Shown here in pieces: positions 15,668 through 23,423 of a DNA stretch of 64,000 nt. The notes under the pieces are model-generated. The model was not told where the DNA came from. It was given only the letters and a program-made list of their open reading frames with translations, and made no database searches. The position numbers and the translations under genes are program-made. The DNA is from Escherichia phage vB_Eco_F26. The stretch lies in the sequence record OP870145.1; one strand, given 5' to 3'. Numbering within the stretch: position 1 is the stretch's first letter; each line of letters begins with the position of its first letter.

Positions 15668-15675
15668 TATTTATA
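15668..15675 (-). promoter_or_regulatory. late promoter TATAAATA upstream of soc
   Basis: Exact TATAAATA on minus strand about 30 nt upstream of soc ATG. Confidence 0.6.
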
Positions 15676-16360
15676 CATCTTCTTTTCTGAATAAGTAAAT
15701 TAAATTCTTAAGAGCTGAACTTGTTACATCATATTTTCCTTTAAGCGCCTTTACAACCGGGCCTGTTGCTGGTTTACCTAAAGAAACCCATAACTCATGT
15801 ATTTCGCTTTTAAGCGGTTCATGCCAATGCGGCGCTTTTCTTTGCGCCCTTGAAGTTCCTTCTGAAATCTTTTTATTTCCGCCATTCGAATAAAACTTTT
15901 TCATTACTTCAGATTGCCGAGCTTTTCGTTCTGCTCTATTTTGGGCTATACGTTGTGAATTCTTCATCCGAGTTTTTGTTTCAGGATTGTTTAATCTAAG
16001 TTTATGTTCTAATCGTTGTTGCTCAGTCCATTTTCTTCCTTCTCCACCCTGACCACCAGGAGAAATATTAATGCAAGTATCTGGGTGTTTACGTTTTAAT
16101 GCAGATATTAGCTCGCGTTCAACTTCATATGATTTTTCTCTAGAACCATGGCATTTTGACCAACGTATTTTATAATTAAAACCATACTTACGATATATGT
16201 TCCATAGTATTTTGCCTGACCCCGGATATTTATCATCATATGGATTTACAATAAATGATTCATGTTTCCCAGCGTACCAAAAGACGCCTTTCGGCGTCCT
16301 AACTTTTACGATATATGTTCTATAAAATTTTTGTTTAATACCCATTATCTTGACGTTCAA
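15671..16360 (-). mobile_element. segF: GIY-YIG-like homing endonuclease (229 aa), segF-like
   Basis: N-terminal GIY-YIG-like motif (RTYIVKV ... GVFWYAGK), basic C-terminal DNA-binding region; between soc and gene 56. Confidence 0.65.
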
Positions 16361-16923: not shown

Positions 16924-17124
16924 ATGGTACAAAAATTAATGGCACTTGTTAATGCCATAAAAGGTAATAAGAAACGTATAGCTTTTACTATTACTGCTAT
17001 GATAGGAATTTTACTTTGGAATTTTGTTTTATCGCCAGTTGCTATTGCTCATGGCGTTAGTATTCCAGTAGTTACTCTTGATACATTCGTAGATTTAGCA
17101 TTTGCTTTAGTTGGGTTAATTTAA
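16924..17124 (+). CDS. small hydrophobic protein (66 aa), plus strand
   Basis: Strong SD AAGGAGGA 4 nt before ATG; two predicted TM segments; only convincing plus-strand ORF in window. Confidence 0.4.
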   Translation: MVQKLMALVNAIKGNKKRIAFTITAMIGILLWNFVLSPVAIAHGVSIPVVTLDTFVDLAFALVGLI

Positions 17125-18149
17125 ATCTTAGCATATTTAGATAGCCGCATTTTAGCCATTAACCCCTGGGCAATATTATTTTTCATATATTCCATAATTT
17201 GTTCAGGGGTTGCACCTTCCTTTCTAATCATATCATTAACATCTTTTGATTTCCAGGGAGATTTATCCCAAAACATAACCCTTTCTCCTGCATCAACTAA
17301 TTTAGTCATTCGTTTAATAGTGTCAGGGTGACGAGGTTCATTATCTAAAACCCACACTCGTCTATCTTTAAATGGAACAACTTCTAGGTCTAATTGACCA
17401 CCCGTAATAGCTATACCATTTTCAATAAAAAGTGAATCTATAGGTCCTTCTAGAACATATACATCACCATCTTTAACTCGTTCGACTCCATAAATTTTTG
17501 TTGCTTCAGGATAAGCTTTGATGGTGATATATTTTTGAGGAGCATCTTTCTTTAATGCACGTCCTTGAAACGACTCAGCTTTTCCATTAGCATTATAAAT
17601 TGGAATAACAAGACGAGGCTCAGAAATTTCCTTTTTATATGTTCCCGGTGCTATGCTATTAACTAATTTAGGCCATTCGGTTGTAAACCAAAGATATTTC
17701 CATTTATCCTTTGGAATACAACGAGCTTTTACATATTTTATAATTGGATGGTCTTCCGCCAGTTTATCTAATCTAACACATGACGGAAGAGATTTAATTA
17801 TTTTCTTCTCAGGTTGTTTAGGAAGTTCTTTAGGTTTTTCTACTGGACGACTTTTACCTTTTTCTTTTCTTATTTCAAAGATATACTCACGATATAAATC
17901 AGGTTCAAACTCCTTTAAATATATTCCGATTGGTGCATGATAGTTACAGTTATAACAATGAATATTTCCTTCATTATTATCACCATAATACCATCCACGG
18001 GCTTTATTCTGGTCGGTTTTTGAATCTCCACAAACTGGGCATCTAAACCGTAATTTAAAAGTTGAACTATTATTTACTTGTGTGAATTTAGGTAAATGAG
18101 CTAATGCACGGTATGCAAACTCATTATCAATCCAAGGTATTGATGACAT
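17121..18149 (-). CDS. 61: DNA primase (342 aa)
   Basis: Zinc ribbon CPVCGDS...CYNC plus Toprim region; 342 aa as T4 gp61. Confidence 0.9.
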   Translation of the reverse strand: MSSIPWIDNEFAYRALAHLPKFTQVNNSSTFKLRFRCPVCGDSKTDQNKARGWYYGDNNEGNIHCYNCNYHAPIGIYLKEFEPDLYREYIFEIRKEKGKSRPVEKPKELPKQPEKKIIKSLPSCVRLDKLAEDHPIIKYVKARCIPKDKWKYLWFTTEWPKLVNSIAPGTYKKEISEPRLVIPIYNANGKAESFQGRALKKDAPQKYITIKAYPEATKIYGVERVKDGDVYVLEGPIDSLFIENGIAITGGQLDLEVVPFKDRRVWVLDNEPRHPDTIKRMTKLVDAGERVMFWDKSPWKSKDVNDMIRKEGATPEQIMEYMKNNIAQGLMAKMRLSKYAKI

Positions 18150-18151
18150 TT

Positions 18152-18316
18152 TTACTCTTCTTTTTCTTTAGATTCCTCTTTTTTCTTTTTAGGAATCTGT
18201 TCAGGACCTTTATTTACTACAGCGCCTGACGTTGTTCCAGTAGAGATATTTTCAGGACTACCACCTGAATCTCCAGCGACCATATCTTCTTTGATAAATT
18301 CTTTATATGTTTTCAT
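18152..18316 (-). CDS. small acidic/basic protein (54 aa), 61.1-like; not in ORF track
   Basis: Hand translation MKTYKEFIKEDMVAGDSGGSPENISTGTTSGAVVNKGPEQIPKKKKEESKEKEE. Confidence 0.4.
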   Translation of the reverse strand: MKTYKEFIKEDMVAGDSGGSPENISTGTTSGAVVNKGPEQIPKKKKEESKEKEE

Positions 18317-18317
18317 A

Positions 18318-18674
18318 TTAACCTCTATTCATAAAAGCATTAAAAATTTGGTCATCAATAGATGGTGCAGTAATATTTTCTGCATCATTTAGCAAATCAT
18401 TAATTTCATCAGATAGCATAACACATGTACCTTTATTTCCTGTAATTGTTACTGCGCAATTACGAACGTTTTCTTTATTAAATTTTAGGTTAATATTTTC
18501 GTAATGAAAATCCTTTAATGCCGAATAAATCTTTAAAATGAAATTGTCTTTTACTACAATAAACCCAACCTCGCTATTAAAACGTGGTTCATGGAAACTG
18601 TAATAAACCTTTTCATCTATAAAATCGTATGAAATTTTTTCCATTTTTAAATATGAAAATTCAGAACTATGCAT
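18318..18674 (-). CDS. hypothetical protein (118 aa), 61.2-like
   Basis: ORF. Confidence 0.45.
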   Translation of the reverse strand: MHSSEFSYLKMEKISYDFIDEKVYYSFHEPRFNSEVGFIVVKDNFILKIYSALKDFHYENINLKFNKENVRNCAVTITGNKGTCVMLSDEINDLLNDAENITAPSIDDQIFNAFMNRG

Positions 18675-18686
18675 ACTAACCTCTAA

Positions 18687-18980
18687 TTACTCACCTACCA
18701 CTTCAGCGATGATATTTTTGTTATTAAAGTTTTTATCGCAATACAGAACATAATTATACTGCATTACACCACCAGACTTAAGCTGTTTTTGCACTTCAGC
18801 TTTCATTTCAGGACGATCGCGCTCAACGATATTCATAATATCTGCTTCAATTTGGGTTTCAACCTCAGTCTGATCCGCAGTCATAGACCATTCGCACAAA
18901 TCTTTATCATAACCTGCCATAGCAGGCTGAGCAGCACAAGAAGCTAAAGCAAAAATTGTAGCAAAGATAAATTTTTTCAT
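18687..18980 (-). CDS. sp: Spackle-like periplasmic superinfection exclusion protein (97 aa from MKKFIF)
   Basis: Signal peptide MKKFIFATIFALASCAAQPAMAG; size and locus match T4 sp. Confidence 0.65.
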   Translation of the reverse strand: MKKFIFATIFALASCAAQPAMAGYDKDLCEWSMTADQTEVETQIEADIMNIVERDRPEMKAEVQKQLKSGGVMQYNYVLYCDKNFNNKNIIAEVVGE

Positions 18981-19041
18981 GATTAATCTCCTCAGTAGTT
19001 TATGTTTATATAGTATCTCAATTTCCAACAAAAGTAAACAG

Positions 19042-19341
19042 CTATTTTAAAACTTCTGCGTAATCACATGTTACAAACTGTTTCTCTAGCTTAACGATCT
19101 TACGAAAATACCTTTTACACTGACGAATCTGCCGCTTCGTAGGGCGAACAGCAAACTTAATAAATTCCACTCTACCAAATGGAGGGCTTTCTTCTGCTGG
19201 AATATCTAGCACCAATTCCCATGTATCTGCAATAAGTGCTTTGAATTGCGTATTTTTCCTGACGTTATACGGAGTGGGTTTAAATAAAACAATATGCATA
19301 TTATCCTCGGCAATCCACTTCACATACTTTCTTGTCATCAA
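19042..19341 (-). CDS. hypothetical basic protein (99 aa), 61.4-like
   Basis: ORF. Confidence 0.4.
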   Translation of the reverse strand: MMTRKYVKWIAEDNMHIVLFKPTPYNVRKNTQFKALIADTWELVLDIPAEESPPFGRVEFIKFAVRPTKRQIRQCKRYFRKIVKLEKQFVTCDYAEVLK

Positions 19342-19483
19342 TGAAAGCTTTAACTAATGCTTTATTAACTTCAGCATACTGAGTAGTAGCCCATTGAACG
19401 TCATCTTTCATCATTGTGGTTTCTTTAGTAAACATGCTTTCATTCTTAAACCACCCCATAAAAACTACTTTTACCAATTCCAT
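19301..19483 (-). CDS. dmd: Dmd-like antitoxin (60 aa from MELVKVV)
   Basis: 60-aa ORF directly downstream of gene 41; locus matches T4 dmd. Confidence 0.6.
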   Translation of the reverse strand: MELVKVVFMGWFKNESMFTKETTMMKDDVQWATTQYAEVNKALVKAFIDDKKVCEVDCRG

Positions 19484-19512
19484 AACAATCTCCACATTTA
19501 ACCAACAAGACT

Positions 19513-19542
19513 ACTATACCATAGTCTTGTCAGCTTGTAAAC
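19513..19542 (-). promoter_or_regulatory. T4-type early promoter (GTTTAC-N18-TATAGT) upstream of dmd
   Basis: Minus-strand GTTTAC 19537-19542, -10 19513-19518. Confidence 0.5.
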
Positions 19543-20969
19543 TAAAATTTTAATTCATTTGCCAAAGCATCTAACTGAGCTCGAGTGGATTCATTTCTTT
19601 GATAGCGATTCTGCTCAGCCTGAATCTGTTGTGAACCTGCTACCTCACTCACTCCAGTTGGAGTAGAATCTTGTTCAATTTCTACCCATTTCTGATTTCC
19701 TTTTTGAACACCCATCAAAAACTTATTCCACTTATTCTTATCACCATATCGTGATTTGATTTGCTTAATGAGTTGTTGCTCAGCGGCTGCTAGCTCCTCG
19801 GTTTCAATGACTGCAAGCATAAAATCAGCTGTTGCTGGAAGACCAGCAGATTCTGCAATATCGCTCATGTTAACATCAGAAGAATCCCAAGCTTGCTTAC
19901 CAACCTGTGCTGCAGTCCAAAGAACAGTTTCGGTTTCAACAGCCAGAGCACGCAATTCCTCTGCGATAGCTTTAACAGTTGTGTAACTATTTTCTGAATA
20001 AACTCTAATGCGGCAAGATTTACAAATACCTAGATAGTCGACAATAATGATTGTTGGAACAAAATTCTTTTTGAGCTTCAATTCATTCAAGAGAGACCTG
20101 AATGTATTAGCGTCTGCTCCACCAGTAGGATACTGTTTAACGATTAAACGACCAAGAGTAGATTTCTCACGCCATTTTTCCATTTTTCCTTTATATTCAG
20201 CGTAAGAAATATGTCCATCATCAATATCGTCAAGAGAAACATCGAGCATGTTAGCATCAATACGTTTAGCACAGACTTCTTCTGCCATTTCCATGGAGAT
20301 ATAAAGAACGTTATGTCCGAGCTGCAAATAATCTGCTGCTAATGAACAAAGTCCTAATGATTTACCAACGTTAACGCCAGCCATTAAAACGTTCAGTGTT
20401 CCAGTCTCAGCTCCACCTTTAGTAATTTTGTTTAGAATTCTGAGTTTAAATGGAACCTTACGAGCTTTATTCATATAAGATAGCCAACGCGCTTCGTAGT
20501 CATCCATCCAATCATGACCAACGTAACTATCAAATGAAATAGATAATGCCTGGCGCATGATGTCAGGAATAGCACCTACATCTGGCATTTTCTTATTTCG
20601 TTTTTCCGGAGGAAGCTCAGCATTAGTTTGAATTTCAATTATTTTAGATGTGGCGTTAAACATCGCCCTTTGCTGAACATATTTTTCTGTTTCTTTTACT
20701 AACCAGCTGTGGTCTTCCGGAGAATCAGCTAGTTTTGAAATAAGTGTTTTTACACCAGAATATTCTGTTTCAGTAAATGAACTATTTTCTAATGCAACAT
20801 TTAACGCATTAATAGATGGAACGCTATGATACTCATTAACATGAGATTTAATTAATTTGAATGTATTTTTAGCTGGACCACTTTCAAAATATTCTGAATC
20901 CATATATGGCCAAACTTTTGAAAAATAAGCTTGATCAAATATGAGATGAGAAAGAATAATTTCTACCAC
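19542..20969 (-). CDS. 41: replicative DNA helicase (DnaB-like), 475 aa
   Basis: Walker A GVNVGKS, RecA-like core; 475 aa as T4 gp41. Confidence 0.9.
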   Translation of the reverse strand: MVEIILSHLIFDQAYFSKVWPYMDSEYFESGPAKNTFKLIKSHVNEYHSVPSINALNVALENSSFTETEYSGVKTLISKLADSPEDHSWLVKETEKYVQQRAMFNATSKIIEIQTNAELPPEKRNKKMPDVGAIPDIMRQALSISFDSYVGHDWMDDYEARWLSYMNKARKVPFKLRILNKITKGGAETGTLNVLMAGVNVGKSLGLCSLAADYLQLGHNVLYISMEMAEEVCAKRIDANMLDVSLDDIDDGHISYAEYKGKMEKWREKSTLGRLIVKQYPTGGADANTFRSLLNELKLKKNFVPTIIIVDYLGICKSCRIRVYSENSYTTVKAIAEELRALAVETETVLWTAAQVGKQAWDSSDVNMSDIAESAGLPATADFMLAVIETEELAAAEQQLIKQIKSRYGDKNKWNKFLMGVQKGNQKWVEIEQDSTPTGVSEVAGSQQIQAEQNRYQRNESTRAQLDALANELKF

Positions 20970-22574: not shown

Positions 22575-23423
22575 TTAATCAACTGCTATTGGATGAATAG
22601 CATTAAACTTATGAAATGCTTCTGATTTTTCTTTACGAGAAACACACATGCGAAGAACCTTTAATGGCTCGTCTTCTTCACCCAACGATTTTCGTTTTTC
22701 AATATTAGAAGTTTTCCAACGAGCTTGCTCTGGAAACTCTCTATTGATTTGTTCAAGCGCTCTATTATGTTTAGAATTACTACGAATTGAACTGCACCCG
22801 CCGGGAGCGTGTGATTTTCCAGATACAACTAGATATTTGAACAAGGCCAAATGCGGATAACCTTGATTAATTAAATTGAGAAATGCATACATATCTTCAC
22901 ATAAATCAATTTTTCCATACCCAATTTGTTCTGTCGTAAGTTTTCCGAGGTCATACCATGTATTCGTGAATCCATATGAGTTTTCACGATAATTACCCCA
23001 AGATGAAGTAATTTTAAAAATTGGTAGACGAGCATGACCGTGATAATACCCGCAATCCATAGCATCCTCAACGTATTGAATTAATTCATAGAACTGTTCA
23101 CGAGTTAATTGATTAATTTTATCTACGCGCCGTTTATCGTCTCTCTTTCGTATTGAACTCATACGAATAGTAGTATCATCATCAATCATCCAGATTCGTT
23201 GACCTGCATACATATCAGTAATTGCTTTACGAGTACCGGCAATTCCATTAACATCATCAGGAATAGTTACAATTTTAGCTCTAGACCCATAAGCATCATA
23301 ATAAGCTTTTTCTTCGTGTTCACGCACTACAATATGTGGTTCATAATCAGTCGGAAACATATCAAGGGCAGAAACTGCCCCGACACGCTGATAACTTGGA
23401 ATTACGAATTGAATCATTTCCAC
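22575..23423 (-). CDS. GT-A fold glycosyltransferase (282 aa) at the beta-glucosyltransferase locus
   Basis: FVIPSYQR N-terminal strand and DxD motif (IWMIDDDTT) typical of GT-A/GT2-like enzymes; lies between uvsX and gene 42. Confidence 0.55.
   Translation of the reverse strand: MEMIQFVIPSYQRVGAVSALDMFPTDYEPHIVVREHEEKAYYDAYGSRAKIVTIPDDVNGIAGTRKAITDMYAGQRIWMIDDDTTIRMSSIRKRDDKRRVDKINQLTREQFYELIQYVEDAMDCGYYHGHARLPIFKITSSWGNYRENSYGFTNTWYDLGKLTTEQIGYGKIDLCEDMYAFLNLINQGYPHLALFKYLVVSGKSHAPGGCSSIRSNSKHNRALEQINREFPEQARWKTSNIEKRKSLGEEDEPLKVLRMCVSRKEKSEAFHKFNAIHPIAVD

What the first reader, a model, noticed from the sequence alone, without database searches (positions are those of the whole stretch)
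18152..19483. Cluster of small genes likely acting in superinfection exclusion and counter-defence
Between primase and helicase are five small ORFs: a 54-aa protein, a 118-aa protein, a signal-peptide protein in the position of spackle, a 99-aa basic protein and a 60-aa ORF in the position of dmd (antitoxin against RnlA/LsoA-type toxins in T4). Such primase-proximal small genes are a known hotspot for anti-toxin-antitoxin factors; the two unnamed ones have no function evident from sequence.
Basis: partly seen in the sequence, partly recalled or inferred. Interest (0 to 1): 0.45.

Follow-up and report, generated by a model that had tools for sequence, protein, structure and literature searches.

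The report
T-even phage anti-toxin gene island
The five small genes between primase and helicase are the well-known T4/T2 cluster 61.1–61.2–sp–tifA–dmd, in which three genes already have proven roles in blocking bacterial toxin defences or re-infection. It is therefore ordinary, apart from two untested leads on the two uncharacterised genes.

Summary
Window 18152-19483 (minus strand) holds five real genes under purifying selection, in a Tequatrovirus (T2/T4-like) genome.

- **dmd:** 60 aa, 59/60 identical to T4 Dmd, the RnlA/LsoA antitoxin mimic.
- **61.4 = tifA:** 85 aa, not 99 aa, and 84/85 identical to the T4 ToxN inhibitor.
- **sp:** 97 aa, 96/97 identical to T4 Spackle, the periplasmic inhibitor of the gp5 tail lysozyme that mediates superinfection exclusion.
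- **The 118-aa gene:** this is the T2-type "61.2". It is not adfA itself. It is a separate half-size paralogue of the C-terminal half of AdfA (anti-DarT factor A). Some phages carry it in tandem with adfA.
- **gp61.1:** 54 aa and uncharacterised.

Two new leads came out of the follow-up:
- gp61.1 starts with the T4 internal-protein capsid-targeting sequence (MKTYKEFIKE against MKTYQEFIAE). It then resembles residues 57-93 of the major capsid protein gp23, around the prohead-protease cleavage site.
- Every gene type found at the adfA position ends in the same DDQIFNAFM(N/K)R(G/D) tail.

Neither lead has been tested experimentally.

The parts
19513..19541 (-). Early-type sigma-70 promoter upstream of dmd-tifA (TTTACA-17-TATAGT with an extended TG; preceded by G, giving GTTTAC)
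   Evidence: Best consensus match in the region, 10/12 with TG. PMC9391042 states that dmd-61.4 is driven by an early T4 promoter.
19301..19483 (-). dmd (gene 61.5): 60-aa antitoxin mimic that inhibits the RnlA/LsoA endoribonuclease toxins
   Evidence: Pfam Dmd, E 2.3e-45, full length. 59/60 identical to T4 and 60/60 to T2. PDB 5hy3_B 'Antitoxin Dmd', E 1e-36.
19042..19299 (-). tifA (gene 61.4): 85-aa basic protein (pI 9.8), inhibitor of the ToxN toxin of the type III toxIN system
   Evidence: 84/85 identical to both T4 and T2 TifA. Pfam DUF7279, E 1.8e-20. Function comes from PMC9391042. pI.
19010..19039 (-). Early-promoter-like site upstream of sp (GTTTAC ... TACTAT). Inferred only.
   Evidence: Read from the sequence. 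It scores 8/12, below the scan threshold. PMC9391042 mentions a promoter downstream of tifA.
18687..18980 (-). sp (gene 61.3, Spackle): 97-aa precursor with a 22-aa signal peptide (18915-18980). Periplasmic inhibitor of the gp5 tail lysozyme; acts in superinfection exclusion.
   Evidence: Pfam T4_Spackle, E 2.3e-44. 96/97 identical to T4. PDB 6x6o, and 7cn6 whose chain starts at residue 23. Function from PMC7677548 and PMC7650644.
18318..18674 (-). Short AdfA-family paralogue (T2-type '61.2'): 118 aa, acidic. Homologous to the C-terminal half of AdfA. Function untested.
   Evidence: Pfam AdfA at 32.4 bits (cut-off 27), covering profile positions 113-211 only. BLASTP gives 34% identity to T4 AdfA residues 109-208. 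hhalign gives 97%, E 2e-11. 117/118 identical to T2. Sits in tandem with adfA in AR1, slur02 and Bas40.
18321..18362 (-). Shared C-terminal tail SIDDQIFNAFMNRG. Its last codons carry the Shine-Dalgarno sequence of gene 61.1.
   Evidence: Identical in T4 AdfA. Present in all three gene types at this locus, always 3 aa before the stop, with synonymous variation. Unique in the window.
18152..18316 (-). Gene 61.1: 54-aa, largely disordered peptide. Made of a CTS-like N-terminus (18287-18316), a segment resembling the N-terminal arm of mature gp23, and a Lys/Glu-rich tail. Function unknown.
   Evidence: 51/54 identical to T4 and 53/54 to T2. phrog_1823. CTS comparison. gp23 similarity. AlphaFold2 pTM 0.17.
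17121..18149 (-). Gene 61 DNA primase (flank, context only)
   Evidence: 340/342 identical to T4 gp61.
19542..20969 (-). Gene 41 replicative helicase (flank, context only)
   Evidence: 473/475 identical to T4 gp41.

Best explanation
This is the T-even phage accessory-gene island between helicase gene 41 and primase gene 61. It is transcribed early from the minus strand.

**Functions transferred from experiments on near-identical proteins**
- Dmd binds and blocks the RnlA/LsoA RNase toxins.
- TifA binds and blocks the ToxN RNase toxin.
- Spackle is exported to the periplasm. There it inhibits the gp5 tail lysozyme of superinfecting T-even phages.

**Functions inferred here**
- The 118-aa gene encodes only the C-terminal, specificity-bearing half of an AdfA-like protein plus the family's conserved tail. 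AdfA is a toxin-binding anti-DarT factor. The short protein most likely binds and neutralises some other host toxin or effector, not the tested DarT1.
- gp61.1 is a disordered peptide with a capsid-targeting-like N-terminus and a gp21 cleavage motif. It may be packaged into heads, trimmed after Glu10 and delivered with the DNA.
For: **Identity**
- The best whole-stretch DNA matches are Tequatrovirus records at 97-98.5% identity, in the same gene order as T2 and T4.
- Per-protein identity to T4 is 94-99% for four genes. The fifth is 117/118 identical to T2.
- Pfam and PDB matches support the assignments.

**Functions from the literature**
- Dmd: PMC3014915.
- TifA and the 'anti-TA island' label: PMC9391042.
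- Spackle: PMC7677548 and PMC7650644.
- AdfA binding DarT1, with the specificity residue at position 164: PMC11257639.

**Short gene**
- hhalign to the AdfA C-terminal half gives 97%, E 2e-11.
- pN/pS is 0.09-0.23.
- It is kept as a separate gene next to adfA in AR1, slur02 and Bas40.

**gp61.1**
- The residues reported as critical for targeting (4 and 7) and for processing (8 and 10) are retained (PMC9026906; sequences).
- The exact 10-mer heads many unrelated proteins in T4-like contigs.
Against: No experiment was done on this phage.

**Short gene**
- T2 carries a 117/118-identical copy, yet it becomes DarTG1-sensitive once adfN is deleted (PMC11257639 section 6). The short protein therefore does not neutralise that DarT1 at native level.
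- The position equivalent to the neutralising His is Asn72 or Cys73.
- The fold model is only moderate (pLDDT 66) and matched nothing informative.

**gp61.1**
- The mature part would be acidic (pI 5.0), unlike the basic internal proteins.
- Dhakavirus-type homologues start MKSFKEVMNE, while the internal proteins of the same contigs keep the canonical targeting sequence.
- Mosigvirus homologues are 155 aa, with the conserved module at the C-terminus and no N-terminal targeting sequence.
- The list of T4 head proteins in PMC9026906 does not include it.
Confidence: 0.85

Rival explanations
1. gp61.1 is not a counter-defence factor. It acts in head morphogenesis or its control. For example, it could be a competitor, decoy substrate or partner for the prohead protease gp21 or the scaffold, mimicking the gp23 cleavage region. 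Alternatively it is an accessory of the primase gene it is translationally coupled to.
For: The gp61.1 family profile hits gp23 residues 58-94 across the LTE65|A66 maturation site. The score is 26 bits, E 7e-7, the second-best hit among 2088 six-frame segments. In 5000 shuffles the maximum was 10 bits against 30 for the real segment. An (I/L/M)-x-E motif precedes the module in every homologue, including the 155-aa Mosigvirus form. The gene stops 2 nt before the primase start.
Against: It lies in a block where three neighbours are proven anti-host factors. CTS-bearing proteins of T-even phages are described as a diverse set of injected defence proteins (PMC3012670). No head-assembly phenotype is on record in the papers searched.
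Confidence: 0.3
2. The 118-aa gene is a decaying remnant of adfA left by a deletion, with no function of its own.
For: It aligns only with the C-terminal half of AdfA and shares the last 14 residues exactly. A 14-nt repeat, TAGAGGTTA(A/G)TATG, flanks it in the window. In slur02 a repeat of about 50 bp flanks it, which would allow recombinational loss or gain.
Against: In AR1, slur02 and Bas40 it co-exists with an intact adfA as a separate gene. Outside the tail it is only about 24% identical to the AdfA C-terminal half, so it is old. pN/pS is 0.09-0.23. Its length is kept at 116-125 aa in subfamilies only 37-46% identical. It has its own Shine-Dalgarno sequence. Roughly 280 records carry it.
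Confidence: 0.05
3. The shared DDQIFNAFMNRG tail is conserved for DNA-level reasons and not as a protein motif. It overlaps the ribosome-binding site of the next gene and possibly a MotA-type middle promoter (TGCTT).
For: The last three codons contain the GAGG Shine-Dalgarno sequence of the downstream gene, followed by TAATATG in every copy. The stretch AATGCTTTTATGAAT resembles a MotA box; this comparison is my own knowledge and was not tested.
Against: Codons for D, D, Q, I, A and F vary synonymously between copies while the peptide is kept. That scan required the peptide, so it is biased. In the AlphaFold2 model the tail forms a helix, residues 106-115. The tail is kept in three otherwise unalignable gene types.
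Confidence: 0.3

Closest known systems
Bacteriophage T4/T2 gene cluster 61.1-61.2-sp-61.4(tifA)-dmd, the 'anti-TA island' of Srikant et al. 2022 (PMC9391042)
   Same: Same gene order, strand and flanking genes (61 and 41). Same early promoter before dmd. Dmd, TifA, Sp and gp61.1 are 94-99% identical to the T4 proteins.
   Different: At the 61.2 position this phage, like T2, has only the 118-aa short paralogue and not T4's 208-aa adfA. About 140 of 485 related records share this arrangement.
AdfA, anti-DarT factor A (Pfam PF23813; T4/RB69 gene 61.2)
   Same: Same locus. Detectable homology to AdfA residues about 109-208, including the region that holds the DarT1-specificity residue. Identical C-terminal tail.
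   Different: Half the length, with no N-terminal half. Asn or Cys at the specificity position instead of His or Arg. A separate gene that can sit beside adfA. The T2 data argue against DarT1 neutralisation.
[quoted passage not shown]
   Same: The gp61.1 N-terminus MKTYKEFIKE compares with MKTYQEFIAE in IPII/IPIII and MKTFKEF in IPI. Y/F4, F7, I8 and E10 are retained and the L/I-x-E gp21 site is present. The first 24 nt differ from ipIII at one base. Like the ip genes, it is expressed without a nearby late promoter.
   Different: Only 44 aa would remain after cleavage. The mature part is acidic, not basic. It is encoded in the replication-gene region. It is not listed among known head contents. 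The targeting sequence is not conserved in Dhakavirus and Mosigvirus homologues.
Major capsid protein gp23, residues 57-93 (end of the propeptide plus the N-terminal arm of mature gp23*)
   Same: 41% identity over 37 residues. The shared positions (GD, G, NI, G, TSGAV, GP) include most of the invariant positions of the gp61.1 family.
   Different: gp61.1 has no capsid fold and is predicted to be disordered. The similarity stops just before the gp23 region I recall as the Gol peptide. That placement is my own recollection and was not verified.

Membership tests
Dmd (PF17587) | Full-length match to the 60-aa Dmd family and to the solved T4 Dmd | tested here: met
   Pfam E 2.3e-45, profile positions 1-60 of 60. 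59/60 identical to T4. PDB 5hy3_B, E 1e-36.
Dmd (PF17587) | Inhibits RnlA/LsoA toxins | not testable with these tools
   Known for T4 Dmd (PMC3014915). The single substitution, I22T, is also the T2 residue.
TifA (gene 61.4; Pfam DUF7279) | 85-aa protein with a central basic cluster, encoded directly downstream of dmd | tested here: met
   84/85 identical to T4 TifA and starts 2 nt after the dmd stop. DUF7279, E 1.8e-20. pI 9.8.
TifA (gene 61.4; Pfam DUF7279) | Binds and neutralises ToxN | not testable with these tools
   Shown for the near-identical T4, T2 and T6 proteins when over-expressed or amplified (PMC9391042).
Spackle (PF25676) | Signal peptide plus the 75-aa periplasmic domain | tested here: met
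   Pfam E 2.3e-44, profile positions 1-96 of 96. 96/97 identical to T4. The crystallised domain starts at residue 23.
Spackle (PF25676) | Inhibits the gp5 lysozyme domain | not testable with these tools
   Shown for T4 Sp (PMC7677548, PMC7650644).
AdfA (PF23813) | Score above the Pfam gathering threshold | tested here: met
   32.4 bits against a cut-off of 27. For comparison, T4 AdfA scores 447 bits.
AdfA (PF23813) | Full architecture of about 208-216 aa covering the whole profile | tested here: not met
   Only profile positions 113-211 of 211 are matched. The protein is 118 aa. No detectable similarity to the AdfA N-terminal half (E 0.39).
AdfA (PF23813) | His at the DarT1-neutralising position (R164H in RB69) | tested here: not met
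   The aligned residue is Cys73 by BLASTP or Asn72 by hhalign.
AdfA (PF23813) | Neutralises DarT1 | not testable with these tools
   Indirect evidence is against it. T2 with adfN deleted, which carries the same short gene, is restricted 10^4-fold by DarTG1 (PMC11257639).
T4 CTS-bearing internal (ejected) proteins | N-terminal 10-residue capsid targeting sequence with the key residues 4, 7 (targeting) and 8, 10 (processing) | tested here: met
   The N-terminus is MKTYKEFIKE. A start-of-ORF regular expression run over the window plus T4 positions 64-150 kb hits only gp61.1, IPII and IPIII. Residue roles come from PMC9026906.
T4 CTS-bearing internal (ejected) proteins | gp21 cleavage motif L/I-x-E at the end of the propeptide | tested here: met
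   The motif is I8-K9-E10. An I/L/M-x-E motif is kept in all 17 homologues aligned. The motif definition comes from PMC9026906.
T4 CTS-bearing internal (ejected) proteins | Present in proheads and virions and processed by gp21 | not testable with these tools
   Not among the head proteins tabulated in PMC9026906. No paper on gp61.1 was found.
T4 CTS-bearing internal (ejected) proteins | CTS conserved across homologues of the family | tested here: not met
   Dhakavirus-type homologues start MKSFKEVMNE. The Mosigvirus homologue is 155 aa and starts MGIINTAI.

The most novel reading that the evidence does not exclude
gp61.1 is an overlooked, very small CTS-bearing internal peptide of T-even phages. 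It would be loaded into the prohead through its N-terminal capsid-targeting sequence and cut by gp21 after Glu10. The remaining 44-residue peptide mimics the N-terminal arm of mature gp23. It would either stay in the head or be ejected with the DNA, acting before any phage gene is expressed. One possible role is as a decoy for a host sensor of the capsid protein. Separately, the AdfA, short and 145-aa genes would form one modular family of toxin binders. In that family a variable recognition domain is joined to a constant DDQIFNAFMNRG tail that docks on a common partner.
Probability: 0.25. Interest if true: 0.6.

Novelty: already known. Interest (0 to 1): 0.3.

Why it matters
As flagged, the finding rediscovers a textbook T4/T2 locus whose role in counter-defence and superinfection exclusion is published. 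It adds no new biology.

Its value lies in the two members that remain uncharacterised:
- If gp61.1 is packaged and ejected, T4 would have a fifth internal, pre-made factor, after more than fifty years of work on the internal proteins. The similarity to the gp23 cleavage region would also give a handle on what recognises that segment.
- If the short AdfA paralogue and its relatives are modular toxin binders with a common tail, that would help explain how T-even phages diversify their anti-toxin repertoires by swapping cassettes at one site.

Tried and rejected
**Searches that returned nothing**
- NCBIfam found nothing for any of the five proteins.
- Rfam found nothing at E ≤ 1 in 17800-19800, and no intrinsic terminators were found.

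**Structure of the 118-aa protein**
- PDB sequence search gave nothing for TifA and only noise for the 118-aa protein.
- AlphaFold2 gave a moderate model: pLDDT 66, six strands and two helices.
- Foldseek against BFVD returned only one significant match, an unnamed 118-aa viral protein (36% identity), and no informative fold.
- I ran no further search on a model of this quality.

**Reach of the short family**
- Word-indexed search found only close copies.
- Exhaustive HMM search of 1.84 billion representatives found only four real clusters plus one repetitive false positive, P0009.

**Is AdfA an internal duplication of which the short gene is one unit?**
- The T4 N-terminal and C-terminal halves align only weakly (E 0.012).
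- The short protein does not match the N-terminal half (E 0.39).
- The idea is not supported.

**Is the 145-aa Gaprivervirus/Dhakavirus protein the missing N-terminal half of AdfA?**
- Only the tail aligns, so I rejected this.

**Does the gp61.1 N-terminus co-vary with the internal-protein CTS in other genera?**
- It does not.

**Other checks on gp61.1**
- A late promoter (TATAAATA) near 61.1 is absent. The T4 ip genes also lack one nearby, so this says nothing either way.
- Small gp61.1-like proteins with a CTS turned up in environmental contigs (L103, L143). Only L103 was examined; it is not next to a primase, and I did not count either as a homologue.
- Literature searches for gp61.1 found only genome-annotation mentions.
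- The Miller 2003 T4 genome review was not available.
Full report
**What is there**

The window is a Tequatrovirus genome segment. The 1.46-kb stretch 18100-19560 matches 509 phage records at 90-99% identity. The best match is Tequatrovirus BCH953P4 at 98.5%, and T2 matches at 97.5%. Gene order is the same as in T2, T4 and the BASEL phage Bas44: primase 61, then 61.1, 61.2, sp, 61.4 and dmd, then helicase 41.

Reading the minus strand gives these gene models:
- dmd, 19483..19301 (60 aa)
- 61.4, 19299..19042 (85 aa)
- sp, 18980..18687 (97 aa)
- a 118-aa gene, 18674..18318
- 61.1, 18316..18152 (54 aa)

Every gene has a Shine-Dalgarno sequence or is tightly coupled to its neighbour.

An early-type promoter lies before dmd at 19541-19513 (TTTACA-17-TATAGT with TG), and it is the best consensus match in the region. 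A weaker GTTTAC...TACTAT site lies before sp. No terminator, Rfam family or plus-strand gene was found. Pairwise pN/pS against AR1, slur02 and Bas40 is 0-0.25 wherever it can be computed, so all five are real coding genes.

**The three genes with known functions**

Dmd is 59/60 identical to T4 Dmd and identical to T2 Dmd. It matches Pfam Dmd over its full length (E 2e-45) and the crystallised antitoxin Dmd, 5hy3. T4 Dmd is the phage inhibitor of the RnlA RNase toxin (PMC3014915).

The 85-aa protein is 84/85 identical to T4 gp61.4. Srikant et al. renamed that protein TifA and showed it to be a protein inhibitor of ToxN. Its co-operonic arrangement with dmd behind an early promoter is exactly what is seen here (PMC9391042).

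Sp is 96/97 identical to T4 Spackle. It matches Pfam T4_Spackle (E 2e-44) and structures 6x6o and 7cn6, whose mature chain starts at residue 23 after the signal peptide. Spackle inhibits the gp5 tail lysozyme and underlies superinfection exclusion (PMC7677548, PMC7650644).

The same eLife paper states that, together with adfA (61.2), this region "may be an anti-TA island" and that other genes in it are attractive antitoxin candidates.

**The 118-aa gene**

It is 117/118 identical to T2 "61.2", whereas T4 61.2 (AdfA) is 208 aa.
- It scores just above the Pfam AdfA threshold (32.4 against 27 bits), but only on profile positions 113-211. T4 AdfA scores 447 bits.
- BLASTP gives 34% identity to T4 AdfA residues 109-208. 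The last 14 residues, SIDDQIFNAFMNRG, are identical, and the rest is about 24% identical.
- Profile-profile comparison gives 97% probability, E 2e-11.

It is not an allele of adfA. AR1, slur02 and Bas40 carry adfA and the short gene in tandem, in the order sp, adfA, short gene, 61.1. A megablast query spanning the sp-short junction was used to estimate how common each arrangement is:
- About 140 of 485 records have the window's arrangement, with the short gene only.
- About 142 records have both genes.
- The rest have adfA only.

The family is tiny. An exhaustive HMM search of 1.84 billion representative proteins found only short forms of 118, 119 and 125 aa and the 210-aa long form.

LeRoux and colleagues describe T2 as lacking adfA. 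They also show that T2 with adfN deleted is restricted 10^4-fold by DarTG1 (PMC11257639). The short protein therefore does not neutralise that DarT1 at native levels. The residue aligned with the DarT1-specificity position (R164H in RB69) is Asn72 or Cys73, depending on the alignment.

AdfA acts by binding the toxin, and the short protein keeps the half that carries the specificity residue. My best inference is that it is a toxin-binding inhibitor with a different, unknown target. That is inference only. The AlphaFold2 model is moderate (pLDDT 66) and gave no informative fold match.

**A shared tail**

Gaprivervirus and Dhakavirus phages have a third, 145-aa gene type at the adfA position. By hhalign it aligns with AdfA and with the short family only in the last 15-16 residues...S(V/I)DDQIFNAFM(K/N)R(D/G).

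A scan of IMG/VR for the back-translated motif found it only in these three gene types. It always lies three residues from the stop, with synonymous codon variation. It is unique in the window. The last codons double as the Shine-Dalgarno sequence of the next gene, so part of the conservation may be at the DNA level. The repeated tail also creates direct repeats that flank the short gene: about 50 bp in slur02 and a 14-nt remnant in the window. These are plausible substrates for the gain and loss of cassettes seen across genomes.

**gp61.1**

No published function was found. The T4 record carries no note for it. AlphaFold2 predicts a short N-terminal helix and otherwise no fold (pTM 0.17). Two similarities stand out.

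*Similarity to the capsid targeting sequence.*
[quoted passage not shown] IPII and IPIII start MKTYQEFIAE, and IPI starts MKTFKEF.
- The sequence identity of the CTS comes from PMC8442874.
- Residues 4 and 7 are reported to matter for targeting, and residues 8 and 10 for processing by gp21 at L/I-x-E (PMC9026906). All four are retained in gp61.1.
- A start-of-ORF pattern applied to all Met-initiated ORFs of the window plus T4 positions 64-150 kb hits only gp61.1, IPII and IPIII.
- At the DNA level, the first 24 nt differ from ipIII at one base.
- In IMG/VR the MKT[YF][QK]EFIxE start heads 127 ORFs from many unrelated families. Several carry the exact gp61.1 10-mer, which shows how modular the signal is.

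*Similarity to gp23.*
- Residues 2-38 align with gp23 residues 57-93 at 41% identity (E 7e-8).
- A profile of 17 gp61.1 homologues ranks gp23 second only to gp61.1 itself among 2088 six-frame segments (26 bits, E 7e-7). IPII and IPIII come next.
- Five thousand shuffles of the gp23 segment never exceeded 10 bits, against 30 for the real sequence.
- That gp23 segment spans the LTE65|A66 maturation site and the start of mature gp23* (a propeptide of 65 residues; PMC9026906).
- Some databases already label 61.1 homologues "major capsid domain-containing".

*Evidence against a general packaging role.*
- The mature 44-mer would be acidic (pI 5.0).
- Dhakavirus-type homologues begin MKSFKEVMNE, although their internal proteins keep the canonical signal.
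- The Mosigvirus homologue is a 155-aa protein with the conserved module at its C-terminus, still preceded by L-F-E.
- gp61.1 is not in the tabulated head contents.

The absence of a late promoter says nothing either way, because the T4 ip genes also sit behind early-type promoters with no TATAAATA within 150 nt.

**Verdict**

The locus is an already-described feature of T-even phages, present at over 90% identity in hundreds of genomes. Novelty is therefore "already known" and interest is low.

The residual value lies in two sequence-level leads that I could not find in the literature available here:
- the CTS-like, gp23-like nature of gp61.1
- the three-type, common-tail gene family at the adfA position, of which this phage carries only the short member

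Noticed in passing
window 18152-18316 (-); T4 loci L008:1417-2416, L013:1591-1878, L007:4946-6511: gp61.1 begins with the internal-protein capsid targeting sequence (MKTYKEFIKE against MKTYQEFIAE). Its residues 2-38 resemble gp23 residues 57-93, around the gp21 maturation site. No paper mentioning this was found.
   Followed up: yes
window 18321-18362 (-); L006:1053-1490, L011:1062-1496, L004:1501-2491: Three otherwise dissimilar gene types at the adfA position share a C-terminal DDQIFNAFM(N/K)R(G/D) tail. These are AdfA (208-216 aa), the short form (116-125 aa) and a 145-aa form. The tail overlaps the ribosome-binding site of the next gene. Phages carry one or two of the three types.
   Followed up: yes
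L009:2170-2637 (Mosigvirus DCP548): The RB69-like counterpart of gp61.1 is a 155-aa protein (phrog_2086 type). The conserved DMVAGD...GPEQIP..KKR module is at its C-terminus, after an N-terminal extension of about 108 aa that has no Pfam hit.
   Followed up: partly
L001:3604-3882 (T2 record LC348380): The T2 reference record annotates sp as 92 aa with a divergent C-terminus (...NNHR). This looks like a frameshift relative to the intact 97-aa Sp of this window and of T4.
   Followed up: no
IMG/VR loci L031-L149: The MKT[YF][QK]EFIxE start heads at least 127 ORFs from many unrelated families in T4-like and environmental viral contigs. This is a large, mostly uncharacterised repertoire of putatively packaged proteins. 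L103 even has two adjacent CTS-like genes next to lysis genes.
   Followed up: partly
window 15671-16360 (-) and 16924-17124 (+): A 229-aa basic ORF with no Pfam hit occupies the position where T4 and T2 have dam. A 66-aa hydrophobic plus-strand ORF lies between dCTPase gene 56 and the primase gene, and is annotated as hypothetical in Bas44.
   Followed up: no
window 22575-23423 (-): In the interval downstream of uvsX, where T4 carries segA and then beta-glucosyltransferase, this phage has a 282-aa protein. It matches the TET-associated glycosyltransferase family (PF20691, E 1e-9), which implies a different DNA-glucosylation gene set from T4.
   Followed up: no
window, whole: The late-promoter octamer TATAAATA occurs only 3 times in 64 kb, against about 11 expected from shuffles. 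This fits a window made up almost entirely of early and middle genes.
   Followed up: no
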